A stretch of 64,000 nucleotides of DNA, from positions 4,975 to 68,974 of the forward strand of contig CAZNNM010000009.1 of the NCBI GenBank assembly GCA_964574415.1, read 5' to 3'. A model generated the notes under the pieces. It worked only from the letters and a program-made list of their open reading frames with translations. It was not told the DNA's origin and did no database searches. Of this stretch, positions 28,733 through 46,728 are shown piece after piece (positions within the stretch are counted from its first letter, which is position 1; every line of letters begins with the position of its first letter). A program made the translations under genes and the position numbers. The stretch is from an uncultured Rickettsiales bacterium. GTDB lineage: Bacteria > Pseudomonadota > Alphaproteobacteria > Rickettsiales > CAZNNM01.

Positions 28733-31700
28733 TTAACGACTGTTACCGCTGTGCCTTTCTTCTGGCTGTTGCGATTGGCTTTGCAAGTAGCGGGAAGCAA
28801 ATGCACCGGCTTCTTGAACATAAGGCCTCACCAGCGATACACTGGCTTGCGCAGCAAGTACAGTAAACGATGCAGTATTCAGCATTAACTGCTCAAACGC
28901 CGTGTTAACAATCGTTTTTACCATACCGCCAATAGTCGGATTATAGGAAGATACTACCTCTGAACCCAACTGACTCACCTTGCATACCGCCGCCCATGGG
29001 CCGTATAGCGCGGTTTTGGCTACCAGATCAACGGTTTCAACTCCAAGTGTTGTCTTCCATGATGAGCCGAAATGCTCACGGGCAAAGCCGCGTATGAATT
29101 GTTCAGCAATACCAACTGCCGCAGAAGAACAAAATACCTGCGCGTTGCTTTGTATCAGCAAACTTTGCAGATCGGCTGTGGTTTGCGGAGTGAAATCAAT
29201 CGTATCACCGTTTTGCGTATAACCACCATTGCGCAGCAATACCTCCTGCACATCATCCGCTTTCAACTCATAACCGCGCGCTTGCGCTTGCGCAGCAAAG
29301 GCTGTGGCTATAGGTGCAATGATCTCTATAGATTCATCCGCATTAAAGTTGACCACCGTGGCGTGGGATGGAACTACATCGCTCGGCGTCTCAACCACAG
29401 GATTAGGATTAGGATTAGACTTAGGCTCTGCATTCGTATGGGCAGACGATAAGAGATTCGGCATTTTCAGTGTCACCGTATTCAGGGCAACATTACGCAA
29501 CGCATATAGCGCAACACCCAACTCCACATACAATGATTGAGAGATGCCACGCGAAGCACTACTCGTCACTGGAGGAGGCGTCACCTCACCTGATGGCGGC
29601 TGTGCGCTTGGTGTTGGGGGTGGGGTGACGGGTGGGGTCGTTGGTGATACAGGCACTTCAGTCGGCGGCGAAGATGGCTCTTCGCCTGGCGTTGGAGGTG
29701 ATACTGGCTCTTCCAGGGGAGGAGTCGGCGTAGGTGTTGGAGTAGGAACAGGCACTGGTGTTGGTTCTTCCGGGGTTGGAGGCGAAGATGGCTGCGGTAA
29801 TGGATCATCATTCTGCACAATCAATCCCTGTGTTCCCACAAAATCCACCTCGTCTATACCCAAATCCTGAGTCACATCCACTCCACCGGCGAGTATTTCA
29901 AAAACTATATCCTCAAATATCGGGCTACTTCTATTATACCCTATAGTCACTGCTTGCTGTTCTGCAATCTCTATTTGCTCTTGTGGAAAATCATGAATGA
30001 CGACATATCTTCCCGTAAATCTTGGATCACTACAGTTTGGAAGATTGCTATAAGATATAAATAACGACTGATGGGATGGATTCATCACGCACCAATTATC
30101 CGCAAACTCTCCATATAGCAATGCCGCTGGCACCGGCACTGTAAGATCTATTGCCGTGCCATTAAGAAAAGCCAGATCATTTTGCCAGTTGCCATCATTA
30201 GTTCCTAATAGTCCATAAACAGTATTGCTCGCACGATTACGGGAAAGAAATGGATATATATTCAGATGATCACGCACATAACGGGTCTTAAATCCGTCTC
30301 CCTCCTCAGTGACAATAGTATACTGCTCCATTACGCTCGTACTGCGATATATCAACCCCTCGCCCAATGCCTTCATCTCTCCACGTTGCAGTGACAGAGG
30401 ATTCCCGCCGAAACGCACTCGATAAAACGGCACCACCGTACCACTCACACATTCTACCGGAATAGTCGTCGTATCCGTAAAATTAATACGAGACACAAGC
30501 GCTTCTGGGCTGACATTTTCCACCAACATCCCGCCAATAATGCCGGTAGACGATGTGGTGCTAATAAAGGTTCCTTCATCTGTGGGCAACAGTTCAAAAT
30601 GTTCGGATGATGTATCACCATGCAGGATAATACTATCTTGCGCCACATCAAATTGCTGAATGCGGTCAACACCATCGCGCCCGATGTGATATCCAAATGT
30701 ATCAGGCGCAGCGCCGCCAATCAGTGTATCTCCATATGTCGCAAACGGGAACCCATGCACATTCTCAGCCACAATCACCGATGTATGGCATCCCTCAAAA
30801 TGATGTTCATGATTCGTATGTTGATAGGTGCCATACCCCTCCCTGTTAAAAGCCGTGTCGCTATATACAGCATGCATCGGAGACGAATTGAGATAGCCCT
30901 GACAGAACGCTTTTATCATCGTGCCATTAATGCTCGGCGCCCATTGAATAAAAGAACCGGACGTTGTGGGCAATAACTGGAATGTAATAGACACACCATC
31001 GGCAAGGCCACGGTTGAGATTATCTGCATGAGAGCCGCCGGGTATCATAAAATAGCCCAACTCTTCAGCAGGAACACTCAGGCTAATATTAAACGTACTC
31101 CCCAGCGGCACTGTATTCAGATTCGCCCAGATAATTTGCCCTAAAACAGGCGCTGTTCCATTGCTCACATAATACCCAAAGCTTGGCGATCTATCGGCAT
31201 CGCTCTCCAGCAATGCCGCCTCGCCTTCCACAAATATCTGCGCATTGCCCGTATCAGGCCCGCCATAGATAACCGTCGGTGAGACATCAGATCCCCGAAT
31301 CACATCATTCCGTTCCGTGCTACACTCCACCCCACGCGGCGGTAGATAAAACTCAATAGGTGTTTCACCTATACGCGATGCAGCAGCCGTAATAACTGAC
31401 ACACCCATACTGATCATCCGGTGAAAAGTCTGTATCTCAAATCTATCATCAACCCCATGACCCTTCACCGCAACATACGGCCCAGGTGCCTGGAAATCAT
31501 ACTTCAAACGGTCAAATGTAATAATATTAGGGTCGCGCCAGATTTGGGGTTTCGCACCAGGCCGCGCAAGGAGTTTGCTGAAGAGAGAATGCTTTAGGTC
31601 ATCCAGAATGTCTTCAACATCTTGATCAAGGTAAAGGCCTATTTCTTTGCCAATATCATAAACTCTTAAAAATACCTCTTCACCCGCTATACCACCAACT

Positions 31701-31933
31701 ATTCCCGCGCCAATAGTTAACACGCCACCCGCAATAACGCCAGGCAGACCTAGCGCTAATAAGGGCGCTAGCGCTTGTGCGGTCATGGTTGCTGCAAACG
31801 CACCACCTGCAACACCACCCCCAAAACCAACGGCCCATTGTGCCATAATATCCGCAGCACCTTGCACATCACCAGATTGATACGCAGCATTAGCATCCGT
31901 GGCTGCCATCGGCGATGCACGCAAGCACATCAC
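28733..31933 (-). CDS. giant modular protein (Gly-zipper-like head, split VWD-like domain with RTX-like insert, Pro-rich linker, C-terminal module shared with protein E)
   Basis: 1066-aa ORF. Head: WAVGFGGGVAGGAFAATMTAQALAPLLALGLPGVIAGGVLTIGAGIVGGIAG. VWD-like start DPNIITFDRLKYDFQAPGPYV and end YGLLGTNDGNWQNDL. RTX-like GDTLIGGAAPDTFGYHIGRDGVD. Linker PVPVPTPTPTPTPP. The last ~280 aa are about 90% identical by eye to the end of protein E. Confidence 0.75.
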   Translation of the reverse strand: MMCLRASPMAATDANAAYQSGDVQGAADIMAQWAVGFGGGVAGGAFAATMTAQALAPLLALGLPGVIAGGVLTIGAGIVGGIAGEEVFLRVYDIGKEIGLYLDQDVEDILDDLKHSLFSKLLARPGAKPQIWRDPNIITFDRLKYDFQAPGPYVAVKGHGVDDRFEIQTFHRMISMGVSVITAAASRIGETPIEFYLPPRGVECSTERNDVIRGSDVSPTVIYGGPDTGNAQIFVEGEAALLESDADRSPSFGYYVSNGTAPVLGQIIWANLNTVPLGSTFNISLSVPAEELGYFMIPGGSHADNLNRGLADGVSITFQLLPTTSGSFIQWAPSINGTMIKAFCQGYLNSSPMHAVYSDTAFNREGYGTYQHTNHEHHFEGCHTSVIVAENVHGFPFATYGDTLIGGAAPDTFGYHIGRDGVDRIQQFDVAQDSIILHGDTSSEHFELLPTDEGTFISTTSSTGIIGGMLVENVSPEALVSRINFTDTTTIPVECVSGTVVPFYRVRFGGNPLSLQRGEMKALGEGLIYRSTSVMEQYTIVTEEGDGFKTRYVRDHLNIYPFLSRNRASNTVYGLLGTNDGNWQNDLAFLNGTAIDLTVPVPAALLYGEFADNWCVMNPSHQSLFISYSNLPNCSDPRFTGRYVVIHDFPQEQIEIAEQQAVTIGYNRSSPIFEDIVFEILAGGVDVTQDLGIDEVDFVGTQGLIVQNDDPLPQPSSPPTPEEPTPVPVPTPTPTPTPPLEEPVSPPTPGEEPSSPPTEVPVSPTTPPVTPPPTPSAQPPSGEVTPPPVTSSASRGISQSLYVELGVALYALRNVALNTVTLKMPNLLSSAHTNAEPKSNPNPNPVVETPSDVVPSHATVVNFNADESIEIIAPIATAFAAQAQARGYELKADDVQEVLLRNGGYTQNGDTIDFTPQTTADLQSLLIQSNAQVFCSSAAVGIAEQFIRGFAREHFGSSWKTTLGVETVDLVAKTALYGPWAAVCKVSQLGSEVVSSYNPTIGGMVKTIVNTAFEQLMLNTASFTVLAAQASVSLVRPYVQEAGAFASRYLQSQSQQPEERHSGNSR

Positions 31934-31980: not shown

Positions 31981-34900
31981 TCAACGGCTGCTGGCAAGTT
32001 GCTTTTCTTCCTGCTGTTGCGCGTGACCTTGCAAGTAACGGGAAGCAAATGCGCCCACTTCTTGGACATAAGGCCCTATCAACGATACAGTGGCTTGCGC
32101 AGCGAGTACAGGCAGAGATGCAGTATTCAGCATTAGCTGCTCAAACGCCGTATCAACAACCGTTTTCACCATGCCGCCAATCCTCGGATCATAGGCCGAT
32201 ACCACTTCTGAACCCAACTGGCTCACCTTGCATACCGCCGCCCATGGGCCGTATAACGCCGTTTTGGCTACCAGATCAATGGCTTCAACCCCCAGCGCAG
32301 TCTTCCACGATGGGCCGAAATGCTCACGGGCGAAGCCGCGTATAAATTGCTCAGCAAGACCCATCGCCGCAGAAGAACCAAACGCCTGCGCGTTGCTCTT
32401 TATCAGCAAGCTTTGTAGATCGGCTGCGGTCTGCGGGGTAAAATCAACCATATCACCTTTTTGCGTATAGCCACCATGGCGCAGCAATACTTCCTGCACA
32501 TCATCCGCATTCACCTCATAACCGCGTGCATGCGCTTGAGTGGCAAAGGCGGTGGCAATCGGTGCAATGACATCGATAGATTCATCCGCATTAAGGTTAC
32601 GCACCGTGACCGTCGCTTTGGATGATACTACACCGCTCGAACCTGGCGTCTCAACCACAGGCTTAGGTTCGGCATTGGTATTCGCAGGCGCTAAGAGGTT
32701 TTGCACCTTAAGTTTTACTGTACTGAATGACGTTTTACCAAGTGCAAGTGCATATGATACAACAACTGTATCTATCCAACTCATATAGAATGGCTCAGAA
32801 ATACTAGGCGAAGCACTGCTCGTCATCGGCGGAGGCGTCACCTCACCTGATGGCGGCTGCGCGCTTGGTGTTGTGGTCGTGGTGACTGGTGGCGTCGTTG
32901 GTGGCACAGGCACCTGCCCAGGCTGCCCCATAGGCTCTGAACCAGGCATAGGCGAGAAGCCGGGTTCCGGGACAAAACCGGGCTCTGGTGTTGGCTCCCC
33001 GACAGGAGGAGGTGGTAGTGGCGTCAGTAATGGTAACGTCCCCTCCAATACAGATACACTAGCAGCTGGAATCGACTCGACACGATACGGATTATACAAC
33101 ACAGTTGAAAACTCTATATCCGCCAACGATAACATCTGCGCATCACGCTTCTGCCCAGGCGCGAATGCTATATTAATACGTGTGCGTGGCAATGCATTGA
33201 ATTGCTCTAATGTCCGGCCAATATTTTCTACGTAATGATGATAAGTAAAATCTACCAACGATATCTGGGCATAAGGTCTTTCTGCTGTAGGTTGGCTTAA
33301 ATAAACGCCTGGTGGATAGCCTTCTGCAAAATAACTCAGCACCACCTCTATTTTATCACCGGCCGAGAAATCGTTAAAGTTATACACTACATCCGGAGTC
33401 CCCTCTGGATTGTTACTTGCATAGAACATCCTTAACTTATCTGGATATGGCCCGCTTATAAATGTAGCATTCTTCGCCCACCCACATTCCAGTATAGTAG
33501 AAAAAGCTCTATCTGCCATTACCGGAACCTCCAGCTCTGTCCGAACATCTACCGGTTGGTGATATTTAGTAGACGAGATAATCTCTAAGTATGTCACCAC
33601 ACTAGATACAACCTCTGTATTTCTAATATCCATTTGTGTTGCCATAATAAATGCATGCTTCTGCAATGTTTGATGCACGATAGCTGCACGCATCTGTAGA
33701 TTATGCGAATACCAAGAGAGATTTACTGGAAATGCTGAAGATTGCGTATAGGATGGCAGATTACACATTTCTAGATTACGAGAACCATAGGCACAGCCGC
33801 GGATTAACAATGATGTAGCAGCCGCTTTATAATCAGACGTAGATGCACTACCTACCCCCCATTCCACCAGCTTCTTATCACTGAACATCATTCTACCAAA
33901 GGTATGAGTATATCCGGCATCTATAACATCAAACGGAAAAGTAGGAGATACTTTAAGAACATCTTCTGGCCCAAGATATTGAACTTCACCACCAGGTAAT
34001 ATACTTGCAGCCCCACTCACTCCAGTAGCCGTCACAACATTAGACCAATGCACATCCACTACACCATCAGGCTGCGCAACCGCTCCAGTCCTAAATGGAA
34101 AATTAGCAAATGTTGTGGTATGCAGTAGCACTGGCTCAGCCTTAGGCTCACCTGTATTCGCAAAATACCGTATAAACACGCGTACCGTATTACTGCCTAG
34201 CTCAGGCAAAACATCAGCCCAGCTAACCGCAAACCCCTCCTCCTCTCCTTCTAATGCGGCACAACCAAACTCTTTTACAAACGTAGTTGAATATAACGGC
34301 ACCACCTCCTGCAAATGCCCACCTTCAGCTGCCACCACCGTCCCCACCCTAAACGGCGCCACCACAACCTGCATCTGCGCATTCACAATCATGCCCTTAA
34401 GAATATTCCCATCCGTACGATGCACAAACCCAATAAAGCTATTCCCATTACTCAGCTTTATACTCTTTAAAGCCTCATATTCCTCAGACGTTGAGAGTGC
34501 TGAAAAGGAAGTAGTATCAGCCGTCAGAAGACGCGTGCTCCCCTGCACCAGACCACCATTCATATTACGTATCTGATACGATACATGCGGGGTTATCATA
34601 TTCTCAGGCGATGGCACTAAATCCGATAAACGCCTCCCCAATAATGCTATATTTCCATTCCCTAGAGATACTATAGCATCAACTCGCAAATCGGGAATCT
34701 CAACCCGCCGCTTGCTCAAATCTATCCCAAAATCACCATTCTCAAATTCCTCCACACGAACACTATGCGAAGAACTCTGCGCTTGAATAACCAGGTCACT
34801 CCCCTGCATCCCAAGATTAAACGTCCGCCCGTCATGCACCATCGTGCACGAAACCTCGCTCACACACGTAGGCGCATCCGTGCCAAAAAGACGGTCGCCC

Positions 34901-36108
34901 ATAAAAATCTGGTTAGCAGGAGCATTCTCGTCAGCAATAACATCCTCATCGGCAGTCACACTATCAGGCAAAAACTTATACTTATTAACAGCTCTCACAT
35001 TCTCATAACGATCACTACCACCAAAATCAGGGATGTCATAATTCCCTTCCGTAGTGATAACCCTATCTCGTTTATTCGTCGTGCCGAATATCTCAGCATT
35101 AGATAAACCATGCGTCAGGATCGTTACGCCAGTTTGAAGTTCAGGATTGGGAAGATGGTTAAGATTTGCTATAAATGCAGCACGATATGCAGAAAAGTCA
35201 CCGTCATATAGCGTCTGCAAACGTGGAGGAACCAAGTCGCCCGTCAACGGATTTGCAGCCCAACGGGCTTTCATGTATTCTTCCCAGTAGTAGGGGTTTT
35301 CATCGTAATTTTCATAATGACCACGCCCACCAAGTACACCTTGTGGCCATGCATAGGGTTCACTATATACAGCTGGAAAATCCTGACCGGGTTGGAATTG
35401 TTGGAAAATAGGTCCCATACGATGCTGGCCAGTAAAAGAAAAATACCATGCATAATATACACTAGCAGGCTGTGCCGTTGTACCATCAATCGTAGTATAT
35501 GAAGGATAAGCACGATAAACCTTACCAACCTGACGATTGGCGGTATTAATTGCATTGGACGCAGCATTAAATGTTGTAACGTGTCCTTCCGCCCATTCTA
35601 ATGCCCCAGCAGTAAAGCTACCCCCAATCACAAGTTCTTGAATATTAGGACGAGAACCAGGGCTATCGAAACTTACAACAGGAGAACGGTCTCTTGCGCC
35701 ACACAATTCCGCTAGAAAACCACCCAATGAGTGACCTGTATGACTTACATGTTCATAAGGATTTAAACCAGTAATGCGTATATACTCTATAGCAACAGCA
35801 TCAATAAATGGTACTGCACTTGCCCAGAATTGCTCTGTTGCAGATGATAATAACGCTAACCATACATCATCACCTATATCCTTTACTACTTCAAATCCCG
35901 GACTTGTTCCTCTATGAGCAATAATCAGTTGCTTGGTTTCCGAATTAAAGTATGCCGACCCAAAATAGCCATTTCCTTGTAACTCTGGCGCAGCATCTAG
36001 AAGGATGGACCATCCAGTAGGTAGCCTCCCAGGTGGTAATAACAGCGTATCATCTTCATCGCGATAAACTTCAACGCTTAATAAAGCATAATCATAATTC
36101 TTTGCCAT
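31981..36108 (-). CDS. giant modular protein E with N-terminal class-3-lipase-like head
   Basis: 1375-aa ORF. The head contains HTGHSLGGFLAELCG (a GxSxG nucleophile elbow). The core contains ENGDFGIDL and SLGNGNIALLG / LSNGNSFIGF blades. The EPGFVPEPGFSP linker matches A and the C-terminal module matches the 1066-aa protein. GGAG lies 8 nt upstream of the ATG. Confidence 0.8.
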   Translation of the reverse strand: MAKNYDYALLSVEVYRDEDDTLLLPPGRLPTGWSILLDAAPELQGNGYFGSAYFNSETKQLIIAHRGTSPGFEVVKDIGDDVWLALLSSATEQFWASAVPFIDAVAIEYIRITGLNPYEHVSHTGHSLGGFLAELCGARDRSPVVSFDSPGSRPNIQELVIGGSFTAGALEWAEGHVTTFNAASNAINTANRQVGKVYRAYPSYTTIDGTTAQPASVYYAWYFSFTGQHRMGPIFQQFQPGQDFPAVYSEPYAWPQGVLGGRGHYENYDENPYYWEEYMKARWAANPLTGDLVPPRLQTLYDGDFSAYRAAFIANLNHLPNPELQTGVTILTHGLSNAEIFGTTNKRDRVITTEGNYDIPDFGGSDRYENVRAVNKYKFLPDSVTADEDVIADENAPANQIFMGDRLFGTDAPTCVSEVSCTMVHDGRTFNLGMQGSDLVIQAQSSSHSVRVEEFENGDFGIDLSKRRVEIPDLRVDAIVSLGNGNIALLGRRLSDLVPSPENMITPHVSYQIRNMNGGLVQGSTRLLTADTTSFSALSTSEEYEALKSIKLSNGNSFIGFVHRTDGNILKGMIVNAQMQVVVAPFRVGTVVAAEGGHLQEVVPLYSTTFVKEFGCAALEGEEEGFAVSWADVLPELGSNTVRVFIRYFANTGEPKAEPVLLHTTTFANFPFRTGAVAQPDGVVDVHWSNVVTATGVSGAASILPGGEVQYLGPEDVLKVSPTFPFDVIDAGYTHTFGRMMFSDKKLVEWGVGSASTSDYKAAATSLLIRGCAYGSRNLEMCNLPSYTQSSAFPVNLSWYSHNLQMRAAIVHQTLQKHAFIMATQMDIRNTEVVSSVVTYLEIISSTKYHQPVDVRTELEVPVMADRAFSTILECGWAKNATFISGPYPDKLRMFYASNNPEGTPDVVYNFNDFSAGDKIEVVLSYFAEGYPPGVYLSQPTAERPYAQISLVDFTYHHYVENIGRTLEQFNALPRTRINIAFAPGQKRDAQMLSLADIEFSTVLYNPYRVESIPAASVSVLEGTLPLLTPLPPPPVGEPTPEPGFVPEPGFSPMPGSEPMGQPGQVPVPPTTPPVTTTTTPSAQPPSGEVTPPPMTSSASPSISEPFYMSWIDTVVVSYALALGKTSFSTVKLKVQNLLAPANTNAEPKPVVETPGSSGVVSSKATVTVRNLNADESIDVIAPIATAFATQAHARGYEVNADDVQEVLLRHGGYTQKGDMVDFTPQTAADLQSLLIKSNAQAFGSSAAMGLAEQFIRGFAREHFGPSWKTALGVEAIDLVAKTALYGPWAAVCKVSQLGSEVVSAYDPRIGGMVKTVVDTAFEQLMLNTASLPVLAAQATVSLIGPYVQEVGAFASRYLQGHAQQQEEKQLASSR

Positions 36109-36123
36109 TCACTACTCCATTAT

Positions 36124-36555
36124 TTAATGCAAACTACGCTGAGCCGCTAACCACCATATAAAAGTTATTGCTATTAATGCCAGCGGTACAACTATAATTA
36201 TTGCTCCTCTGGTTAAGATATGCATATAGCTCAATTTTGTATTGCCGCTATTCCTCCATAAAAAAACTCCAACTACTAATTCATATAAAAGAAATACGCC
36301 TACCAATATACTTGCAATAACATAATCGACATCCTTACTAAAAGCAGTGTCTGAACCTGCTAATCTATCTGGATTTAAAGATGACAACAGAATATCAAAC
36401 ATATAATTCCATAGAATATTTGTTATATAGAATAGAAAGATACTTCCAACAACTCCCCACCCCCAAAACACAATCCAGAGCCTTACCTCACCTTTCCAGC
36501 ATCGTTTTAAATGATTAACAATAGACATACCCACTCCTATCAACACCCCCATCAC
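36124..36555 (-). CDS. small polytopic membrane protein (immunity-like candidate) upstream of lipase protein E
   Basis: About four hydrophobic segments. The likely true start is ATG 36528 (MSIVNHLKRCW), preceded by GGAG. It is a paralogue of the frameshifted gene at 38029..38410. Confidence 0.6.
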   Translation of the reverse strand: MMGVLIGVGMSIVNHLKRCWKGEVRLWIVFWGWGVVGSIFLFYITNILWNYMFDILLSSLNPDRLAGSDTAFSKDVDYVIASILVGVFLLYELVVGVFLWRNSGNTKLSYMHILTRGAIIIVVPLALIAITFIWWLAAQRSLH

Positions 36556-38014
36556 CCAGCGACACTAACGCATCCACTCGCAAGCCCACAATCTCAACCC
36601 GCCGCTTGCTCAAATCTATCCCAAAATCACCATTCTCAAATTCCTCCACACGAACACTATGCGAAGAACTCTGCGCTTGAATAACCAGGTCACTCCCCTG
36701 CATCCCAAGATTAAACGTCCGCCCGTCATGCACCATCGTGCACGAAACCTCGCTCACACACGTAGGCGCATCCGTGCCAAAAAGACGGTCGCCCATAAAA
36801 ATCTGGTTAGCAGGAGCATTCTCGTCAGCAATAACATCCTCATCGGCAGTCACACTATCAGGCAAAAACTTATACTTATTAACAGCTCTCACATTCTCAT
36901 AACGATCACTACCACCAAAATCAGGGATGTCATAATTCCCTTCCGTAGTGATAACCCTATCTCGTTTATTCGTCGTGCCGAATATCTCAGCATTAGATAA
37001 ACCATGCGTCAGGATCGTTACGCCAGTTTGAAGTTCAGGGCTTGGCAAGCGGTTTAGTTTCTCGGAAATAAAGGCACTACGATACGCGGCAAAATTATTC
37101 CCATAATGCTCTTGAACGCTTATCGAGACACCATTAATATTCGCCCACTCAGGATCAGCGGCCCAACGGGCAGCTATGTATTTTTCCCAGTAGTAAGGGT
37201 TCTGGTCATAATTCTTGTACTGATTATAACCACTCGTATCCACTAACGTTCCAAACGGCCAAACATCAGGCTCGCTATATACTGTTGGCAAATCTTGGCC
37301 AGGCTGGAATTGTTGGAAGATAGGAATCATACGGTGCTGGCCCGTAAAAGAAAAACTATATCCATAATAAATATTACCAGGTTGATCGCTCATGCCGTCA
37401 ATGGTCATATATGGTGAATATACCCTATACATCTTCCCAACATGAGTATTGGCAGTACTAACTGCATTAGGGGCCGCATTAAACGTCACCGTATTTGCAT
37501 CAATCCATGCCATAGCATCTGAAGCAAATGTACCATCAATAATAAGATTTTGGATATTGGGACGCGAACCAGGACTTTCAAAATTCCGAACGGGAACTTT
37601 ATCCATTGCTCCAGATAGCTCCGCCAGAAATGCCCCTAATGAATGTCCCGTGTAACTCAAATGCTCACGTGGCCCTAAACCGGTAACGCGGAAATATTCT
37701 GCTTTTGCGGCATTGATGAAGGGGATGGCATTCTCATGAAATTGTTGGGTTTGCCAATCTAGTAATGCCAACGCTATATCATCGCCAACATCAGCAAAAA
37801 TATTATCTGTTCCAGCATGTGCTATAATAAGCTGCTTTGTAAAATTATTTATATACGCTCTGCCAAAATAGCCATTTGCAGACCATCCTCCATCTTGGGA
37901 ACTGAGCAAAATAGACCAATCACTGGGAAGCCGTCCTTCAGGCAAGAAAACATCATCTTCCGGATTATTGTAACACTCAACACTAAATAATGCATATTCA
38001 TAGTTCTTAACCAT
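36515..38014 (-). CDS. truncated lipase-head paralogue (second class-3-lipase-like head plus constant region, truncated at the first NGN blade)
   Basis: 499-aa ORF. The head contains YTGHSLGAFLAELSG and is about 60% identical by eye to the E head. nt 36590-37039 are identical to E nt 34696-35145. The ORF ends in a short unrelated tail (DGGVDRSGYVYC*) where E has GNGNIALLG. Confidence 0.7.
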   Translation of the reverse strand: MVKNYEYALFSVECYNNPEDDVFLPEGRLPSDWSILLSSQDGGWSANGYFGRAYINNFTKQLIIAHAGTDNIFADVGDDIALALLDWQTQQFHENAIPFINAAKAEYFRVTGLGPREHLSYTGHSLGAFLAELSGAMDKVPVRNFESPGSRPNIQNLIIDGTFASDAMAWIDANTVTFNAAPNAVSTANTHVGKMYRVYSPYMTIDGMSDQPGNIYYGYSFSFTGQHRMIPIFQQFQPGQDLPTVYSEPDVWPFGTLVDTSGYNQYKNYDQNPYYWEKYIAARWAADPEWANINGVSISVQEHYGNNFAAYRSAFISEKLNRLPSPELQTGVTILTHGLSNAEIFGTTNKRDRVITTEGNYDIPDFGGSDRYENVRAVNKYKFLPDSVTADEDVIADENAPANQIFMGDRLFGTDAPTCVSEVSCTMVHDGRTFNLGMQGSDLVIQAQSSSHSVRVEEFENGDFGIDLSKRRVEIVGLRVDALVSLGDGGVDRSGYVYC

Positions 38015-38028
38015 ATTAATTCTCTATC

Positions 38029-38410
38029 TTAGCTATGATTAAAAGTTAAAAACTGTTGCATGAACCATCCTAAAAGCAGCAACAACCCTCCCAAAAAACC
38101 GATTAGAATAACACTTACTCGTGTTAGAGTTTTCAGAAACTGGCTACTTGTATTGGCGCTGTTTTTCCATATTATAAAAAGTGCAAGTAAGCAGTAGCAT
38201 ACAGCTATAGAAAAATATATTGTACCAAACCAAAATTCATTATACCGACCAAATGCCTCATGAATAGACGGATACAGATAGCTCCACAGATAAATCATAG
38301 CTGTTACAAGAGCACTTGATACAGCTACCCCCCCAACCCCAGAACACAATCCAGAGCTTTTCCTCGCCTCTCCAACACCGTTTTATATGATTTACAAATC
38401 CAGACAACAT
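38029..38410 (-). pseudogene. frameshifted paralogue of the 36124..36528 membrane protein (G7 tract)
   Basis: ATG 38410 opens MLSGFVNHIKRCWRGEEKLWIVFWGWG, matching MSIVNHLKRCWKGEVRLWIVFWGWG in the paralogue. The frame is then lost at a run of 7 G on the minus strand (7 C on the plus strand, 38328-38334). The rest of the homologue (the 106-aa ORF 38029..38349) is in the adjacent frame, and G6 would restore a single ORF. Confidence 0.7.
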
Positions 38411-38442
38411 CTTCTCTTCCCATAGTTGTATTTCGCAACCGC

Positions 38443-38471
38443 ACCATACCTAACAGCCCAACCACTGTCAA
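38443..38471 (-). promoter_or_regulatory. sigma70-type promoter, cassette copy 4
   Basis: On the minus strand: TTGACA, a 17-nt spacer, then TATGGT, about 33 nt upstream of ATG 38410. GGAAGAG lies before the ATG. Confidence 0.55.
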
Positions 38472-38595
38472 CTTTACCGATTCACCAATAAGTTATACTT
38501 TCTGGCGGATATCCGCTCGCATGATGCTATAACTCTCTGGTATATAAAAAGAGTAATGGTTGTGTTTTTAGCGCTTTGGCATAAATAGAATATTG

Positions 38596-39096
38596 CTAGG
38601 CAGCTGATGAATACGTTGTATTCCCATTCGCCAAGGAAATCATCGCATCCACCCGTAAATCAGGAATAGCATAACGGCGCTGGCTCAAATCTATCCCAAA
38701 ATCACCGCTCTCATAACCCTTAACCTTGATGCTATGCGTAGAGTCCTGGGCTTGGATGACTAAATCTCCATTCTGAACGGAGACGCTATAGGTTTTTCCC
38801 TTATGGGTCGTGGTGCAGGATATTTCGCTGGCACATTCAAAGCTGCTTGTGCCGAACTGCCCTTCATCAATATCAATACAGTACGATGGCCAGTAAGCGG
38901 CAAGGTGAGATACGATGCAGGAAGGTGAATACCAAAATAGGTACTGACTTATTTTGAAATAATTGCCGTCATTTTTGGACTTGATCGGCGTTGTTGCATG
39001 GCGATAAAATACCCTGTCATCAGCCCAAGGATGACAAGCATTCATAACACCTATGTATTTTTCTAATGTTATCTTGGGACTGTCACATTCTGACAA
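38596..39096 (-). pseudogene. chimeric remnant ORF F (unrelated 5' part with MITE fragment, out-of-frame patch of gene A, E-like segment)
   Basis: nt 38874-38938 are identical to gene A nt 23033-23097 but are read in a different frame. Downstream, FGTSSFECASEISCTTTHKGKTYSVSVQNGDLVIQAQDSTHSIKVKGYESGDFGIDLSQRRYAIPDLRVDAMISLANGN is colinear with E. It ends with the tail TYSSAA*. nt ~38975-39000 match the MITE terminal sequence CTTGATCGGCGTTGTTGCATGG. Confidence 0.65.
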
Positions 39097-39162: not shown

Positions 39163-39190
39163 GGGACGGCGAAACCGTCCCTTTTTGCTT
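39163..39190. terminator. GC-rich hairpin immediately after the 798-aa gene
   Basis: GGGACGG-cgaaa-CCGTCCC followed by TTTTTGCTT on the plus strand. On the minus strand, which is the coding strand of the flanking genes, an A-run precedes the stem and no U-tract follows it. Confidence 0.45.
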
Positions 39191-41585
39191 AGGAGATGAC
39201 ACAGTGGTCATGCTTCCGCTGCTTTTGTACTTTTTCGGTATGCAGTGACTGTGAGGAACTTGCGATACCTCCCATGGCTCCATTTGAAGATGATGCTTGC
39301 AGAGAAGGCTGCGGAGATTCATCAGGTGTCAACACTGAGACAGCAGGCATGGCACGGCTAAGCAGGGCAGATGGCGCATCCCTGCCTAATATTGCCCTCA
39401 GATTTCCCGATGCCCCCAATGCATCACGCGTTGCTTGTGCCAGCCTGCTTGCATCTTGTAGGGTGAGATAGGATGCCAGACTCTCCATAACAGATTGTGC
39501 CGTATGAATAAGAGGCTGCTGTACAGAGCGGGATTGCACATAAAAACTTGTCCAAACAGGGCCTGGCACATTACCCGAAACACCTAAAACAGAGCTATGA
39601 TATTCATAGGCTAGTTCTGTAGGCCTTATCTGTATCTGCTGTATAAAATGCATACATGTTGCAGGATATTTTTCTAATCTCGTAAGGAGATTTATATACG
39701 CCGCAGGATTCTCCTGTAACTGTCGAAGGAAATCAGCATATTTCGCATCATGCTCTTGTAACTGTACCAGGAAATCAGCACATGCTACAGGGCCCTTCTG
39801 TAGCTCGACAAGAAAATCAGCATATGTATCAGGGTAGCGCCCTAATATTGTGAGAAACTGAGTACATACACCATCCAGCGATAAAATATTTTCTTTTATT
39901 CCAGCTATTGTCCAACCTTTTGCTACTAATATGGATAGGCTGAAACATCCTCCCCCCAATATCTTTTCCAATGTTTCAAAGTCATCTTTATAACACTCTA
40001 TGATAAACTGAGGAGCAACACCTATATCTGCTAACAGCATCGCTCCATGCATCATCTTTCCGAGCAATACAGGTTGTGTTTTAGATAGCGATATAATGTA
40101 CTCATTAGGAACATTGAGTCTTTGCAAATCCTCAATAGCCCCAATCCCAGCAGCATATAAGATTTTACTCCAACCTGTTGGTTCTGTAATGCATCCATTC
40201 ACAAGCTGCGCATTAATGATGCCAAGTTCCTTGAGTACCCGAAGTCCTTCCAACCCATCTCCAGTAATCATTTGGCACAGGAGATGCGGGGTATGCATAA
40301 AAAGCTCGTGTATTTCCGGCATTCGGAATACCATAATTTGTAAGGATCGCAGCCCTCGCAACCCATCTTTACTTATCATCTGACACAGGAGATGCGGGGT
40401 ATGCATAAAAAGCTTTTGTATTCCCTCCATTGGGAATCCTGTATCTATTAAAGCTCCCAGTCCTTTCAACCTATTTTCTACAATTATCTGATAGAGCAGA
40501 TATGGCTCATTCACAACAAGATTTCGTACACCTTCCTTAGAAAGATATCCCTCTCTTAATATACACATTACGTACTGCCCAGCGTTGCTCATTATCTGCG
40601 CCAGAATATCTGGTTTCTCCGTAAAGAGTGTTTGCACCTCTTCTCCCGTAACCCCCATCTCCTGGAATACTTGCGGACACTCTAAGCTAATCGACGCCAG
40701 CATATCGCTTAAAAGAGCAGGGTTAGCTTTAAATAGATTCACAATATTATCATTATGAATACCCAATTGCTGCAATACCAGCACCCCATCCTGATTAACA
40801 TACCTTAATACATTAACAAAAGCGTATGGATTCGTTTCCAATACTTTCAGGATCGACCCTTTCCGCACACCTAAATTCTGCAATAATATGATGGTTTCCA
40901 GCCCCATGGGACTACCTATAGAAACGAATAGTGTTATATCCGTCTGAAACACGCCTGTAATCGTTTTATTATATACCCCTAATGCTCTGAATGCTATAAG
41001 ACCATCTAATAGTTTTTCATATGACAGCCTTGAATTCTCCATAAGCACATGAAAAATATCTAACGGAGAGATGCCAATATCCTGAAACCCCCGCAACTCC
41101 CCTTGTTCTACTTTAGATACCAGCGCCTTTAACAATGAATAGAGATGCCGAGCATCCTGTTGGTACCATTGCTCAATCTGGCCCTTCGTAGCTCCCCAGC
41201 TATGCAACACCCAAAATCCTTCCAGCTGAGAACGCCATCTTTGTTGATTGGCAGAATCACGCACAATCTTCTCCAGTACCTCACTCAGAAATACGGGAGC
41301 CTCGCGAAACAACTCACCTACCTGTTCAATACTCACACCAGCATCACGCAATTGCTTTAATTCACCAGCATACTTAACTATCTTACTAAAGAGTTGGTCA
41401 TACTTAGAAAACAGCGCAATAATATCATCGCGATTAATTCCCGCACCCTCTAATGCTTGAAGTACCCCCTGTCTCCTATACCCATCCATCGCCTCCGGCC
41501 ATTCTCTGACTGGATTCTGTACAGGGGTGACTGGCGCGGTAGCAGAAGATGAGGCAGTAGGCGTGTTTTTTGTTTTTTTAGGCAT
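39189..41585 (-). CDS. mTERF-like repeat protein (eukaryote-like effector candidate)
   Basis: 798-aa ORF made of more than 12 consecutive ~36-aa units of the form LxxLG(I/V)xxxxIxxLFxxxPxLLxxMxxxxxxxxxx, for example LQQLGIHNDNIVNLFKANPALLSDML and LIDTGFPMEGIQKLFMHTPHLLCQMI. Five or six ~12-aa YADFLxxLQxxP units follow. The C-terminus has an F-box-half-like LASYLTLQDASRLAQAT. Confidence 0.6.
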   Translation of the reverse strand: MPKKTKNTPTASSSATAPVTPVQNPVREWPEAMDGYRRQGVLQALEGAGINRDDIIALFSKYDQLFSKIVKYAGELKQLRDAGVSIEQVGELFREAPVFLSEVLEKIVRDSANQQRWRSQLEGFWVLHSWGATKGQIEQWYQQDARHLYSLLKALVSKVEQGELRGFQDIGISPLDIFHVLMENSRLSYEKLLDGLIAFRALGVYNKTITGVFQTDITLFVSIGSPMGLETIILLQNLGVRKGSILKVLETNPYAFVNVLRYVNQDGVLVLQQLGIHNDNIVNLFKANPALLSDMLASISLECPQVFQEMGVTGEEVQTLFTEKPDILAQIMSNAGQYVMCILREGYLSKEGVRNLVVNEPYLLYQIIVENRLKGLGALIDTGFPMEGIQKLFMHTPHLLCQMISKDGLRGLRSLQIMVFRMPEIHELFMHTPHLLCQMITGDGLEGLRVLKELGIINAQLVNGCITEPTGWSKILYAAGIGAIEDLQRLNVPNEYIISLSKTQPVLLGKMMHGAMLLADIGVAPQFIIECYKDDFETLEKILGGGCFSLSILVAKGWTIAGIKENILSLDGVCTQFLTILGRYPDTYADFLVELQKGPVACADFLVQLQEHDAKYADFLRQLQENPAAYINLLTRLEKYPATCMHFIQQIQIRPTELAYEYHSSVLGVSGNVPGPVWTSFYVQSRSVQQPLIHTAQSVMESLASYLTLQDASRLAQATRDALGASGNLRAILGRDAPSALLSRAMPAVSVLTPDESPQPSLQASSSNGAMGGIASSSQSLHTEKVQKQRKHDHCVIS

Positions 41586-41768: not shown

Positions 41769-42230
41769 CTATATCCTCATAAACTCCGAATACACCCCAT
41801 CCTTAAGCTGGTAAATAATGAACGGAGCTTCTTTGGGGCCGGGCATACCTGGAGTGCCGATTGGCATTCCAGGTAGCGCGATACCATCAATATCGGGGTT
41901 TTCTTCCAGAAGTTTACTCACGGCTTTAAGGGGGACATGACCTTCAATGAAATATTTACCGATAATGGTGGTATGACAAGAACGCATTTCTGCGGGGATG
42001 TTATGGGTATCTTTTACCGCATCCACCGCTTCCGTATTAGTCGAGCGCACCTTCCAACCCTTCTCCTCAAGAACACGAACGTAACCTGTACAGCAGCTAC
42101 AACTTGGTGATTTAAAGACTTCTGCGGAATAGGTCACTTCTTGCTGATCCTGGCTGATATCAAGAACATATAAACCAGTACCCAGCAGGATTGATGCTCC
42201 TAGGAAGAAGAGAAATAAGGTGCCTTTCAT
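41769..42230 (-). CDS. copG: DUF411 (CopG-type) periplasmic metal-binding protein
   Basis: Signal/anchor helix, a Cys cluster SPSCSCCTGY, and the conserved ...FIEGHVPLKAV... and GMPIGTPGMPG segments typical of DUF411 proteins in cop clusters. Confidence 0.75.
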   Translation of the reverse strand: MKGTLFLFFLGASILLGTGLYVLDISQDQQEVTYSAEVFKSPSCSCCTGYVRVLEEKGWKVRSTNTEAVDAVKDTHNIPAEMRSCHTTIIGKYFIEGHVPLKAVSKLLEENPDIDGIALPGMPIGTPGMPGPKEAPFIIYQLKDGVYSEFMRI

Positions 42231-42251
42231 TATACTATCCTCGGCTTAACG

Positions 42252-42491
42252 TTACTGCTTTTTCATTTTTTCATGATCCATGGTGCTCATATCACCATCA
42301 GCTTGCTTAGAACATTTTTCTTTTTCTGCGCAATCTTTAGAACAATCTTTTCCCTTAGCACATTCCATCATGCAATCTTTCCCTTGCGGGCATGCTTCTT
42401 TGCTTGCATGGTCATGTGCTGATCCTGCATAACCTATAGCAGGTGTCATAATAACTGAGGCAATAAGTAGTTTTCTCATGATATTTTTCAT
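42252..42491 (-). CDS. small secreted Cys/Met/His-rich protein (putative metal binding)
   Basis: 79-aa ORF with a signal peptide (ending GYAGSA). It has repeated KDC/KEKC motifs and an HDHxxK...MDHEKM segment, and it lies within the cop cluster. Confidence 0.5.
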   Translation of the reverse strand: MKNIMRKLLIASVIMTPAIGYAGSAHDHASKEACPQGKDCMMECAKGKDCSKDCAEKEKCSKQADGDMSTMDHEKMKKQ

Positions 42492-42514
42492 AGTCTTTCT
42501 CCTTTTTGTTATGG

Positions 42515-43039: not shown

Positions 43040-43048
43040 TTCTATCTC

Positions 43049-45386: not shown

Positions 45387-45405
45387 ATGTTCTTTTTCTC
45401 CATCA

Positions 45406-46435: not shown

Positions 46436-46728
46436 TTTGTTCCCTCTAATAATGTAGATGGTAAATATCCGACTTGGGCAGAAAATATATGCAATCCCAT
46501 TTCACGGCTGAGAGATTGCCCCTGCTGCAGCACATTCCCTGCGCCCAATCCCACCACCAATGCCAAGGCAATAGACGCCACACTAAGCTCCCGCCATGAG
46601 AAGCCTGATGAGGCTTGCCTCGTATGCACTCTCTGCAAAACATCCTGCTCCAGCATATCCAACTTATAGGCTTTCCGTTCATGTTTAAAATGCAAAGATA
46701 TAAGTTTATCAATTGGTTCCCTTGGCAT
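46432..46728 (-). CDS. small single-pass membrane protein, CnrY-like anti-sigma candidate
   Basis: 98 aa with one central TM helix (VASIALALVVGLGAG). It is the first gene of the three-gene set and overlaps the next gene by 4 nt. Size and position match cnrY in cnrYXH. Confidence 0.5.
   Translation of the reverse strand: MPREPIDKLISLHFKHERKAYKLDMLEQDVLQRVHTRQASSGFSWRELSVASIALALVVGLGAGNVLQQGQSLSREMGLHIFSAQVGYLPSTLLEGTK

What the first reader, a model, noticed from the sequence alone, without database searches (positions are those of the whole stretch)
35600..38410. Two divergent lipase heads, each preceded by its own polytopic membrane protein
The two class-3-lipase-like heads (HTGHSLGGFLAELCG in E and YTGHSLGAFLAELSG in the 499-aa gene) are about 60% identical by eye. 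The gene immediately upstream of each is a member of the same small ~4-TM family (36124..36528, and the frameshifted 38029..38410), with comparable divergence. Co-divergence of an enzyme head and an adjacent small membrane protein is the signature of cognate toxin/immunity or effector/chaperone pairs. Here the small gene is upstream and tightly coupled, with a 14-16-nt gap or overlap. The other heads are likewise preceded by small genes: a DUF3592-like protein before B and a lipoprotein before A.
Basis: inference. Interest (0 to 1): 0.6.

Follow-up and report, generated by a model that had tools for sequence, protein, structure and literature searches.

The report
Tandem lipase-head cassettes with membrane partners
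Upstream of a giant secreted-protein gene sits a cut-off older copy of its lipase "head"; each head has its own small membrane-protein gene in front, which looks like swappable toxin/immunity cassettes placed at the front of the gene rather than the back, though no function has been tested.

Summary
The sequence facts mostly hold. Two lipase-like heads are 57% identical. Each lies 14-15 nt downstream of a small membrane-protein gene of one family.

Four details need correcting:
- The membrane proteins have 3 predicted TM helices, not 4.
- They are far more diverged than the heads (32% identity; dN 0.65 against 0.34).
- The "frameshift" in the second one is a G7 versus G6 homopolymer difference. 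An independent assembly has the intact 126-aa gene.
- The "499-aa gene" is a truncated copy: head plus linker, with no body or C-terminus. It ends inside the start of the next membrane-protein gene.

A 445-nt block that is 100% identical joins the truncated copy to the full-length gene E. Other truncated heads in the window break at the same "NGN" site. A conserved promoter-like element follows two of these breaks, and a third copy lies upstream of g154. So [small envelope-protein gene + head + linker] behaves as a cassette, stacked 5' of the full-length gene.

Head relatives elsewhere include a T4SS-toxin-like group with upstream lipoprotein genes, and N-terminal domains of giant RTX (T1SS-type) proteins. 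Distant relatives of the membrane protein are never next to lipases.

Toxin/immunity is the best reading, but it rests on gene architecture only. It is a new variant of a known kind.

The parts
38596..39096 (-). g166: remnant ORF ending in a linker module (…LRVDAMISLANGN|TTYSSAA*). It is the oldest displaced fragment of the array.
   Evidence: 56% identical to E aa 397-486. It breaks right after 'NGN'. It is also present on the independent contig L004.
38441..38506 (-). Conserved intergenic element with a promoter-like site (TTGACA-17-TATGGT, 38471..38443) upstream of TM2. Other copies lie at about 27869..27803 and 25214..25160.
   Evidence: The 31-nt core occurs 3 times with at most 3 mismatches, against 0 expected.
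38029..38410 (-). TM2: small 3-TM protein gene, read as frameshifted in the window because of a G7 run at 38334..38328. The G6 version encodes an intact 126-aa protein.
36515..38014 (-). g499: displaced, truncated copy. It consists of lipase-like head 2 (38014..37043) plus the linker (37042..about 36545) and has no body or C-terminal region. Its stop codon lies inside the TM1 start region.
36594..37042 (-). Upstream copy of a 445-nt, 100% identical direct repeat (linker). Its partner is at 35148..34700.
   Evidence: dS is 0.06 here against 2.7 in the adjoining heads.
36124..36528 (-). TM1: 134-aa 3-TM protein. It has the N-terminal motif NHLKRCWKGEVRLWIVFWGWG and an AGGAG RBS lying inside the 3' end of g499.
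31981..36108 (-). E: full-length 1375-aa acidic protein with no signal peptide. Regions: lipase-like head 1 (36108..35149; S127, H229, N185), linker (35148..34609), body (34608..33019), then a Pro/Thr-rich spacer and helical C-terminal domain (33018..31981).
34700..35148 (-). Downstream copy of the 445-nt identical linker repeat, inside E.
28733..31933 (-). g1066: paralogue sharing the C-terminal 320 aa with E (71% identity). Its head is different: Gly-zipper-like hydrophobic stretch plus VWD. It has no small gene of its own upstream.
20077..28687 (-). Second array of the same design. In order: linker remnants g192 and g154; g213 (2-TM protein) with g437 (truncated Gly-zipper/RTX head + linker); a g213-like start remnant; g291 (lipoprotein-like) with g1395 (full length).

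Best explanation
The region is the 5' end of a modular giant-protein locus in which N-terminal 'head' cassettes are stacked.

What the sequence shows:
- A cassette consists of a small envelope-protein gene (here a 3-TM inner-membrane protein), a translationally coupled enzymatic head (here a class-3-lipase-like Ser/His hydrolase), and a linker that ends at an 'NGN' motif. Some cassettes also start with a promoter-bearing intergenic element.
- Only the last cassette (TM1 + head 1) continues into the body and C-terminal region, as gene E.
- The cassette in front of it (TM2 + head 2 = g499) and the g166 fragment are displaced, truncated predecessors.
- A 445-nt block of perfect identity links g499 to E.

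What is inferred:
- The head is a membrane-lipid hydrolase that is exported by a C-terminal-signal pathway. Type I (RTX-like) secretion is the best guess.
- The upstream membrane protein protects the producer's own membrane from its cognate head, that is, it acts as an immunity protein.
- The identical linker repeat would let RecA-type recombination delete 1,894 nt and fuse head 2 onto the body of E, so the array stores alternative head/immunity pairs.

This is a mirror image of the 3' 'orphan' toxin/immunity arrays of CDI and Rhs loci.
For: Array structure:
- g499 aligns to E aa 1-491 and then stops.
- The linker repeat is 100% identical over 445 nt and is flanked by about 55-65% identity.
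- dS is 2.7 in the heads against 0.06 in the linker.
- g499, g166 and g437 all break just after 'NGN'.
- The conserved promoter-like element occurs 3 times against 0 expected.
- A second array of the same design lies at 20-28.7 kb.
- An independent array exists in L018, downstream of a HlyB-size ABC exporter.
- The independent unitig L004 ends about 31 nt inside the repeats, as expected if they are real.

Head is a hydrolase:
- S127 and H229 are invariant in 33 homologues.
- The AF2 core is confident for aa 30-180. The best Foldseek hits are a T6SS lipase effector (9cys_A) and fungal class-3 lipases.
- NCBIfam Rlip_lipase matches at E=7.6e-15.
- dN/dS is about 0.12, so both heads have been under purifying selection.

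Export by a C-terminal signal:
- The proteins have no signal peptide and pI 4.3-4.9.
- g1395 and g437 carry RTX nonapeptides.
- Homologous heads sit at the N-terminus of >2000-aa RTX proteins L012 and L027.

Immunity-like partner:
- The gaps are 14-15 nt and the TM1 RBS lies inside g499.
- Every truncated or full head except g1066 has its own envelope-protein gene in front.
- Relatives shaped like X-Tfe effectors have upstream lipoprotein genes (PMC6536674).
- A 3-TM immunity protein, CdzI, serves T1SS-exported membrane toxins (PMC5380434).
Against: - No functional data of any kind exist for these genes.
- Relatives of the TM family elsewhere are in housekeeping-like contexts and never beside lipases. 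The family as a whole is therefore not an immunity family.
- The canonical acid position of the catalytic triad is Asn185 in both heads; it is Asp in 24 of 33 homologues. Activity is unproven.
- The closest curated family, RLip, is a host-directed effector with no immunity partner (PMC12507273).
- The window also encodes eukaryote-like proteins (mTERF repeats, VWD), which points towards host targeting.
- No T1SS, T4SS or T6SS genes are in the window.
- E itself has no RTX match in the Pfam scan. The match of the linker to HCBP_related repeats is weak (hhalign probability 14.5%).
- The C-terminal domain has no recognisable fold (pLDDT 46.8).
- g1066 lacks an upstream partner.
Confidence: 0.45

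Rival explanations
1. E is a host-directed effector and the rest is recombination debris. On this reading E is an RLip-like phospholipase effector aimed at eukaryotic cells, and g499, g166, g437, g154 and g192 are pseudogene remnants of paralogue shuffling. The small membrane-protein genes are hitch-hikers or have an unrelated envelope role, and do not provide immunity.
For: - The best curated family for the head is the Rickettsia secreted lipase RLip. RLip acts in the host cytosol and lacks a signal peptide (PMC12507273).
- Neighbouring genes carry eukaryote-like mTERF and VWD domains, and g1707 has a GT-A-like region.
- TM-family relatives sit in housekeeping contexts.
- The TM genes show relaxed constraint, with dN/dS about 0.5-0.6.
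Against: - Both heads show purifying selection (dN/dS about 0.12).
- TM2 is intact in an independent assembly.
- Gene spacing, an RBS and a conserved promoter element are retained.
- Four different heads each keep an envelope-protein gene in front.
- The same window carries a TpsA/CdiA-like protein, which is an interbacterial weapon.
Confidence: 0.3
2. The upstream membrane protein is an accessory factor for the head, needed for its activation, membrane targeting or export, rather than (or as well as) an inhibitor.
For: - The closest solved structural neighbour of the head is the E. cloacae T6SS lipase Tle. Its immunity protein Tli is also required to activate it (PMC11470151, PMC10294624).
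- The genes are tightly translationally coupled.
Against: - A 126-134-aa 3-TM protein exposes very little soluble surface.
- Its conserved parts are predicted to face the cytoplasm (positive-inside reasoning, 55 data), and no enzyme-like motif is seen.
- No homology to known chaperones or activators was found.
Confidence: 0.12
3. The tandem arrangement is an assembly artefact: a mis-join through the repeated linker. The two lipase genes would really lie at separate loci.
For: - A 445-nt perfect repeat is the kind of sequence that confuses assemblers.
- The window has at least one probable homopolymer error.
Against: - A mis-join through the repeat would give head2-linker-body. It would not give the observed unique junction from the g499 tail into the TM1 start, which has a sensible RBS.
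- The same break point and design recur at three other places in the window.
- The independent unitig L004 confirms the g166-TM2-head2 order and stops at the repeat boundary.
Confidence: 0.05

Closest known systems
X-Tfe / X-Tfi effector-immunity pairs of Xanthomonadales-like bacteria-killing T4SS
   Same: - The toxic domain is variable and N-terminal, and Lipase_3/DUF2974 types are among those used.
- The export determinant is C-terminal.
- The immunity gene lies immediately upstream and is co-transcribed (PMC6536674).
- Distant homologues of this head, found here in Xanthomonas, Stenotrophomonas, Luteibacter, Dyella and Hydrogenophaga, have this layout: an overlapping upstream gene and a Gln-rich C-terminus. 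The upstream gene has a clear lipobox in 4 of them, and XVIPCD was scored only in P0008 (E=0.00048, below cut-off).
   Different: - E and g1066 have no XVIPCD (Pfam shows nothing up to E=10; hhalign probability 0.1%).
- The proteins are 3 times larger, with a body and a Pro/Thr-rich spacer.
- The partners are polytopic membrane proteins, not lipoproteins.
- No T4SS genes are in the window.
- I do not know of stacked or truncated cassettes being described for X-Tfes (from my own knowledge, not checked).
Orphan toxin/immunity cassette arrays of CDI (cdiA-CT/cdiI) and Rhs polymorphic toxin loci
   Same: - Divergent toxin+partner modules abut a conserved stretch that allows recombination.
- Displaced modules lack the delivery part of the protein.
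- Module diversity is old while the flanks are young (PMC3482391).
   Different: - The polarity is reversed. Here the variable module is N-terminal, the partner gene is upstream, and the displaced copies lie 5' and keep start codons and a promoter-like element.
- There is no homology to CdiA or Rhs cores.
Type I-secreted RTX proteins with an N-terminal functional domain (family I.3 lipases, FrpC-like and giant RTX proteins); Cdz system with its 3-TM immunity protein CdzI
   Same: - The proteins are acidic and lack a signal peptide, with the functional domain first and the export signal expected last.
- g1395 and g437 have RTX nonapeptides.
- Homologous lipase heads top genuine RTX giants L012 and L027, and in L018 such a gene lies beside an ABC exporter.
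- CdzI is a small 3-TM immunity protein for T1SS-exported membrane toxins (PMC5380434).
   Different: - E has no RTX match in the Pfam scan (E<=0.01).
- No ABC, MFP or TolC genes are in the window.
- No sequence similarity to CdzI was tested or claimed.
- Classical RTX loci do not carry stacked head cassettes.
RLip, secreted lipase of Rickettsia (NCBIfam NF052630)
   Same: - It is the best curated sequence-family match of head 1 (aa 31-227, E=7.6e-15).
- It has a GHSLG-type serine hydrolase motif and no Sec signal, and is secreted by an unidentified route (PMC12507273).
   Different: - The score of 54.7 bits is far below the 440-bit family cut-off, so this is homology only.
- RLip is a 353-aa stand-alone, host-directed protein with no described partner gene.
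Tle/Tli T6SS phospholipase-immunity pair of Enterobacter cloacae (PDB 9cys)
   Same: It is the top structural neighbour of the head model (Foldseek E=1.5e-5). It is an antibacterial class-3-type lipase with a dedicated partner protein.
   Different: - The structural overlap is low (TM 0.34-0.39, 18% identity) and only half of the model is confident.
- Tli is a periplasmic lipoprotein, and delivery is by T6SS.

Membership tests
Class 3 lipase (Pfam Lipase_3, PF01764) | Sequence reaches the Pfam gathering score | tested here: not met
   E head scores 11.3 bits against a cut-off of 22. The g499 head has no hit. Homologues P0002, P0003 and P0008 do reach it.
Class 3 lipase (Pfam Lipase_3, PF01764) | Nucleophile elbow G-H-S-L-G on a strand-turn-helix of an alpha/beta-hydrolase core | tested here: met
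   TGHSLG is invariant in 33 homologues. In the model, strand 121-126 is followed by helix 128-140 at pLDDT about 90. The top Foldseek hits are class-3 lipases.
Class 3 lipase (Pfam Lipase_3, PF01764) | Catalytic His and Asp completing the Ser-Asp-His triad | tested here: inconclusive
   H229 is invariant (33/33). The usual Asp position is N185 in E and g499; it is D in 24 of 33, N in 7 and S in 1. The model is unreliable for aa 182-283, so the geometry could not be checked.
RLip secreted effector lipase (NCBIfam NF052630, equivalog) | Whole-protein score at or above the curated cut-off (440 bits) | tested here: not met
   54.7 bits, E=7.6e-15, covering only aa 31-227.
X-Tfe (X-T4SS effector) | C-terminal XVIPCD domain (PF20410) with a Gln-rich tail | tested here: not met
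   Pfam gives no hit on the C-termini of E, g1066, g1395, g1707 or g3129 up to E=10. hhalign of the E/g1066 C-terminus against XVIPCD-type C-termini gives probability 0.1%. Only a short QQQEE stretch is present.
X-Tfe (X-T4SS effector) | Cognate immunity gene immediately upstream and co-oriented | tested here: met
   The position is met (15-nt and 14-nt gaps). Immunity function is not tested.
X-Tfe (X-T4SS effector) | An X-T4SS (virB/virD4) in the genome | not testable with these tools
   None is present in the 64-kb window. The rest of the genome is not available.
Polymorphic toxin system (sensu Zhang et al. 2012) | Variable toxin domain at the C-terminus, followed by an immunity gene | tested here: not met
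   The variable domain is N-terminal and the partner gene is upstream. The definition is taken from PMC3482391.
Polymorphic toxin system (sensu Zhang et al. 2012) | Diversification by recombination with stand-alone or displaced cassettes that share a conserved flank | tested here: met
   The 445-nt identical linker lies beside saturated head divergence. The break point is shared and remnants are present.
Polymorphic toxin system (sensu Zhang et al. 2012) | Partner protein neutralises the toxin specifically | not testable with these tools
   This needs co-expression or binding experiments.
Type I-secreted RTX protein | RTX nonapeptide repeats (PF00353) at the gathering score | tested here: not met
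   E: no match at the E<=0.01 limit used. g1395 scores 19.2 bits and g437 17.4 bits against a cut-off of 23. Motifs such as GNDTLRGGYGDDHHDGGRGDD are visible by eye in g1395.
Type I-secreted RTX protein | Acidic protein, no N-terminal signal peptide, export signal at the C-terminus | tested here: inconclusive
   pI is 4.3-4.9 and no N-terminal hydrophobic segment is found. The C-terminal signal cannot be recognised from sequence.
Type I-secreted RTX protein | Dedicated ABC/MFP export genes | not testable with these tools
   None is in the window. The related array in L018 lies 1.5 kb from a 754-aa ABC exporter.
Small 3-TM 'RCW-GEE-LW-VFWGWG' membrane protein family (no database model) | N-terminal W-x-G-x(3)-[LC]-[WS]-x(2)-FW motif, 3 TM segments, and a W[RK][CN][AS]xN motif after TM2 | tested here: met
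   TM1 and TM2 align with P0011-P0015 and with the full-length metagenome members; most of the 17 loci matched only at the N-terminal motif, residues 7-29. No Pfam or NCBIfam model exists.

The most novel reading that the evidence does not exclude
This may be a previously undescribed, mirror-image polymorphic toxin system.
- Giant proteins with a C-terminal export signal (probably type I-exported, RTX-like) would carry exchangeable N-terminal toxin heads: lipase or glycine-zipper types.
- Each head would be paired with an upstream envelope immunity gene.
- Older head/immunity cassettes would be displaced to the 5' side, where they stay promoter-equipped and recombination-ready through a perfectly conserved linker. 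The cell could then switch heads by a simple deletion while keeping the immunity genes.
- The G7 tract in TM2 could add on/off switching.
Probability: 0.3. Interest if true: 0.72.

Novelty: new variant of a known kind. Interest (0 to 1): 0.52.

Why it matters
Interbacterial toxin loci known so far diversify at the 3' end, with C-terminal toxins, downstream immunity genes and 3' orphan arrays. If the cassettes here are real toxin/immunity pairs, the same evolutionary logic operates in reverse polarity on proteins with C-terminal export signals. That would widen where such systems can be looked for, for example in RTX giants and T4SS substrates. It would also add a new polytopic-membrane immunity type for a phospholipase, and a natural example of head switching through a defined linker. 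Even without the functional claim, the locus is a clear case of modular recombination among otherwise orphan giant proteins.

Tried and rejected
- **XVIPCD / X-Tfe membership.** Pfam at E up to 10 and hhalign against six XVIPCD-type C-termini found no similarity. Rejected.
- **Structure of the E/g1066 C-terminal domain.** The AF2 model has pLDDT 46.8 and is all-helical. It is too poor for a fold search, so a colicin-like pore domain could be neither supported nor excluded.
- **Linker as an HCBP_related/RTX module.** hhalign probability is 14.5%. Inconclusive.
- **Homologues of the linker, body and C-terminus of E.** Only E itself was found among 5.8 billion proteins, and the candidate list was probably swamped by the Pro/Thr-rich spacer. 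PDB gave nothing and plasmids gave nothing.
- **Homologues of TM1.**
  - The word-indexed search found only TM1 itself.
  - The exhaustive search found 6 relatives.
  - Their contexts, and those of 17 metagenome loci, show no lipase neighbours.
  - The idea of a conserved TM-lipase pairing is therefore rejected.
- **Organism identification.**
  - Exact look-ups returned no names.
  - The run accession is not in the literature.
  - CopA is closest to Acinetobacter plasmids at 60%, so only 'probably a gammaproteobacterium' can be said.
- **Recombination as the cause of the 82%-identical TM N-terminus.** Rejected. The motif is the family-wide conserved part.
- **Alignments too divergent for locus scans.** Searches failed and were repeated with fewer sequences.

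Full report
**1. What is at the coordinates**

All genes of interest lie on the minus strand. Reading 5'→3' on that strand:

| Element | Coordinates | Notes |
|---|---|---|
| g798 | 41585..39189 | mTERF-repeat protein |
| g166 | 39096..38596 | remnant ORF |
| conserved intergenic element | about 38506..38441 | promoter-like site |
| TM2 | 38410..38029 | frameshifted in the window |
| g499 | 38014..36515 | the "499-aa gene" |
| TM1 | 36528..36124 | 134 aa |
| E | 36108..31981 | 1375 aa |
| g1066 | 31933..28733 | paralogue of E |

The TM1 stop to E start gap is 15 nt. The TM2 stop to g499 start gap is 14 nt. The g499 stop overlaps the TM1 start by 14 nt, and an AGGAG box for TM1 lies inside the end of g499.

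**2. Corrections to the observation**

- *Divergence of heads and linker.* The heads (aa 1-320) are 57% identical. From E aa about 322 to 471 the two genes are identical. At the DNA level this is a 445-nt block of 100% identity (35148..34700 = 37042..36594). It is flanked on both sides by about 55-65% identity.
- *g499 is truncated.* After that block, g499 diverges and stops (…LRVDALVSLGDGGVDRSGYVYC*), while E continues for another 880 residues. So g499 is a truncated head-plus-linker copy and not a complete member of the family.
- *The membrane proteins diverge faster.* TM1 and frame-repaired TM2 are 32% identical (E=1e-26). The first about 25 residues are 82% identical and the rest about 25%. 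Nei-Gojobori estimates are as follows:

| Region | dN | dS |
|---|---|---|
| Heads | 0.34 | 2.7 (saturated) |
| TM genes, whole | 0.65 | 1.4 |
| TM genes, outside the N-terminal motif | 0.90 | about 1.5 |
| Linker | 0.014 | 0.06 |

  "Comparable divergence" is therefore wrong. The membrane proteins changed about twice as fast at non-synonymous sites, and the heads have been under purifying selection.
- *Number of TM helices.* A hydropathy scan finds three TM segments in each protein.
- *The frameshift.* It is one extra G in a G7 run. An independent unitig from a public read set (L004, SRR9107545) is 99.95% identical over 1,893 nt. Its only difference is G6, which encodes an intact 126-aa protein, P0010. 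That unitig ends about 31 nt inside the 445-nt repeat. It also ends about 30 nt inside a second 65-nt perfect repeat (38874..38938 = 23023..23087). This is what a k-mer graph does at real repeats.

**3. The wider pattern: stacked cassettes**

- All-against-all comparisons show that the linker module occurs in E, g499, g166, g192, g154, g437 and g1395.
- Three truncated copies (g499, g166, g437) end within a few residues after the same "NGN" motif.
- After the g166 and g437 breaks comes a roughly 170-nt conserved element carrying TTGACA-17-TATGGT. A third copy lies upstream of g154. Its 31-nt core occurs three times with at most 3 mismatches, against none expected.
- A second array has the same design at 28.7..20.1 kb:
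  - It runs: remnants g192 and g154, then g213 (2-TM, weak DUF3592 match) with g437 (truncated), then a g213-like start remnant, then g291 (lipobox-like SLVSC) with g1395 (full length).
  - The g437 and g1395 heads are 38-42% identical.
  - These heads, and that of g1066, are glycine-zipper-like hydrophobic domains rather than lipases.
- The recurring unit is therefore [small envelope-protein gene + head + linker up to NGN], in some copies preceded by the promoter element. Only the last unit of each array runs on into a body and C-terminal region.
- An unrelated MAG (L018) shows the same thing independently:
  - The order is: a 364-aa secreted protein, a 684-aa truncated lipase-head gene, an identical 364-aa gene, and a lipase-head gene of more than 1084 aa with cadherin-like domains.
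  - The array lies 1.5 kb downstream of a 754-aa ABC exporter.

**4. What the head is**

- Pfam does not recognise either head. The few homologues carry Lipase_3, Mbeg1-like or "phospholipase-like" annotations.
- NCBIfam's model for the Rickettsia secreted lipase RLip matches E aa 31-227 (E=7.6e-15, 54.7 bits, cut-off 440). RLip has lipase activity that depends on its GXSXG serine, lacks a Sec signal and reaches the host cytosol by an unknown route (PMC12507273).
- An AF2 model from a 9-sequence alignment is confident only for aa about 30-180 (mean pLDDT 59.7). Its best PDB neighbours are a T6SS lipase effector (9cys_A, E=1.5e-5) and fungal class-3 lipases and feruloyl esterases.
- In a 33-sequence alignment, S127 and H229 are invariant. 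The usual acid position is Asn185 in both window heads; it is Asp in 24 of 33, Asn in 7 and Ser in 1.
- "Class-3-lipase-like Ser/His hydrolase" is therefore supported. Full triad and activity are not established.

**5. Where related heads occur**

The genome scan found three settings.

- *Proteins shaped like X-Tfe effectors.* These are about 440-aa proteins of Xanthomonas, Stenotrophomonas, Luteibacter, Dyella and Hydrogenophaga with an N-terminal head and a Gln-rich C-terminus. An upstream gene overlaps by 4 nt, and it has a clear lipobox in L021, L030, L033 and L038. This is the X-Tfe/X-Tfi design (PMC6536674). The metagenomic P0008 adds a weak XVIPCD match and an upstream lipoprotein gene.
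- *Giant RTX proteins with the head at the extreme N-terminus.* L012 has 20 HemolysinCabind stretches (E=7e-125). L027 has HemolysinCabind plus HCBP_related domains.
- *Stand-alone lipases.*

So this head family is used repeatedly as the N-terminal payload of proteins that are exported through C-terminal determinants.

**6. How E might be exported**

- E, g1066 and g1395 lack signal peptides and are acidic, with pI 4.6-4.9.
- g1395 and g437 have sub-threshold RTX nonapeptides, and weak matches to RTX regions of family I.3 lipases and hemolysins.
- The E/g1066 C-terminal 320 aa (71% identical) is not an XVIPCD. It could not be modelled.
- The linker resembles HCBP_related repeats only weakly.
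- No secretion-system genes are in the window. The flanks hold copper-resistance, Ada/Ogt and aryl-polyene genes.
- Type I export is my best guess. It is an inference from analogy.

**7. What the membrane protein is**

- TM1 and TM2 belong to a family with no Pfam or NCBIfam model. The family is defined by an N-terminal motif (K/R)CW(K/R)GEExLWxVFWGWG, three TM segments and a W(R/K)(C/N)(A/S)xN motif after the second.
- By the positive-inside rule (my inference), the N-terminus and the TM2-TM3 loop are cytoplasmic. The loop between TM segments 1 and 2, which differs most between TM1 and TM2, would then be periplasmic.
- Relatives elsewhere show no link to lipases. Of the 12 metagenome loci with enough downstream DNA, 10 have a thiolase gene next; an acyl-CoA dehydrogenase gene is evident upstream in only a few (L042-L044, L053), and L054 and L055 differ. 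P0011 lies beside sugar-nucleotide genes and P0013 beside a relaxase.
- The pairing with a lipase head is therefore specific to this locus and is not a family trait.

**8. Interpretation**

*Shown by the sequence:* the cassette architecture, the truncation of g499, the perfect linker repeat, the shared break point, the conserved promoter-like element and the intactness of TM2 elsewhere.

*Inferred:*
- The heads are membrane-active toxins.
- The upstream envelope proteins are their cognate protectors.
- The array stores displaced head/partner pairs.
- Recombination across the 445-nt repeat could fuse head 2 to the body of E.

This works like an X-Tfe/X-Tfi pair or a CDI/Rhs orphan array. The small 3-TM immunity protein CdzI, which serves a T1SS-exported membrane toxin, is a further parallel (PMC5380434). 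The locus fails the defining tests for membership of each of those families (see the membership table).

The main rival is that E is a host-directed RLip-like effector and the rest is recombination debris. It is favoured by the eukaryote-like neighbours (mTERF, VWD). It is disfavoured by four observations:
- Both heads are under purifying selection.
- Coupling signals and the promoter element are retained.
- Four different heads each keep an envelope-protein partner.
- A TpsA/CdiA-like weapon is present in the same window.

**9. Verdict**

The toxin/immunity reading is plausible but rests on architecture only. I rate it a new variant of a known kind, of moderate interest.

Noticed in passing
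window 2419..11808 (-) and 1725..2459 (-): A 3129-aa TpsA/CdiA-like protein with a TPS secretion domain (E=1.6e-41) and haemagglutinin repeats. Its C-terminus carries a GHSNG alpha/beta-hydrolase-like motif. It is followed by an overlapping 244-aa gene with a lipobox-like LLLSAC. This looks like a conventional C-terminal toxin/immunity pair in the same window.
   Followed up: partly
window 38328..38334: The G7 homopolymer inside TM2 causes the apparent frameshift, and an independent assembly has G6. It could be a sequencing error or a slippage-prone tract that switches TM2 on and off.
   Followed up: partly
window 38443..38494, 27805..27856, 25160..25213 (-): There are three copies of a conserved intergenic element with a TTGACA-17-TATGGT promoter-like site. 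In two copies it also supplies the start codon, so g154 and g291 both begin MLYMAT.
   Followed up: yes
window 23023..23087 and 38874..38938: A 65-nt perfect repeat joins the g1395 linker region to the g166 remnant 15 kb away. This suggests recent exchange between the two arrays.
   Followed up: no
window 20077..24264, 25299..26612, 28733..31933 (-): The heads of g1395, g437 and g1066 contain long glycine-zipper-like hydrophobic stretches (for example GGGVAGGAFAATMTAQALAPLLALGLPGVIAGGVLTIGAGIVGGIAG). These suggest membrane-inserting toxins. g1066 also has a VWD domain match (E=8e-8).
   Followed up: partly
window 39189..41585 (-) and 18968..20002 (+): A 798-aa protein has mTERF repeats (E=7e-17), a mostly eukaryotic family. 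A 344-aa protein has paralogous repeats. The organism may be host-associated.
   Followed up: no
window 13826..18949 (-): A 1707-aa orphan protein has a GT-A glycosyltransferase-like region at aa 175-309 (NCBIfam E=3e-9, far below the cut-off). It may be a large glycosylating toxin or effector.
   Followed up: no
L018:4811-12346: An unrelated MAG carries [364-aa secreted protein + truncated 684-aa lipase-head gene] followed by an identical 364-aa gene and a longer lipase-head/cadherin-like gene. This array lies downstream of a 754-aa ABC exporter and a GNAT gene. It is an independent instance of the same stacked design, unless it is a MAG assembly duplication.
   Followed up: partly
L039-L053 (metagenome loci): The TM1/TM2 family is widespread in metagenome contigs (several from TARA ocean samples), usually just upstream of a thiolase gene and in a few loci downstream of an acyl-CoA dehydrogenase gene. 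Sometimes there are two tandem paralogues. No Pfam or NCBIfam model exists, so it is an uncharacterised conserved small membrane protein.
   Followed up: partly
L015, L017, L027 (after the lipase heads): Several homologous head proteins carry motifs of the type 'PLVLDL-GDG…'. By eye these resemble the Ca-dependent self-processing module of FrpC-like RTX proteins. Such a module could release the N-terminal head after export. This was not tested with a model.
   Followed up: no
window 42000..46500 and 53300..63900 (-): The flanking genes are ordinary: a copper-resistance cluster (CopA/CopB-like, ECF sigma factor) and an aryl-polyene-type biosynthesis cluster (KS, KR, ApeP-like dehydratase, halogenase-like, MMPL, LolA-like).
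   Followed up: no
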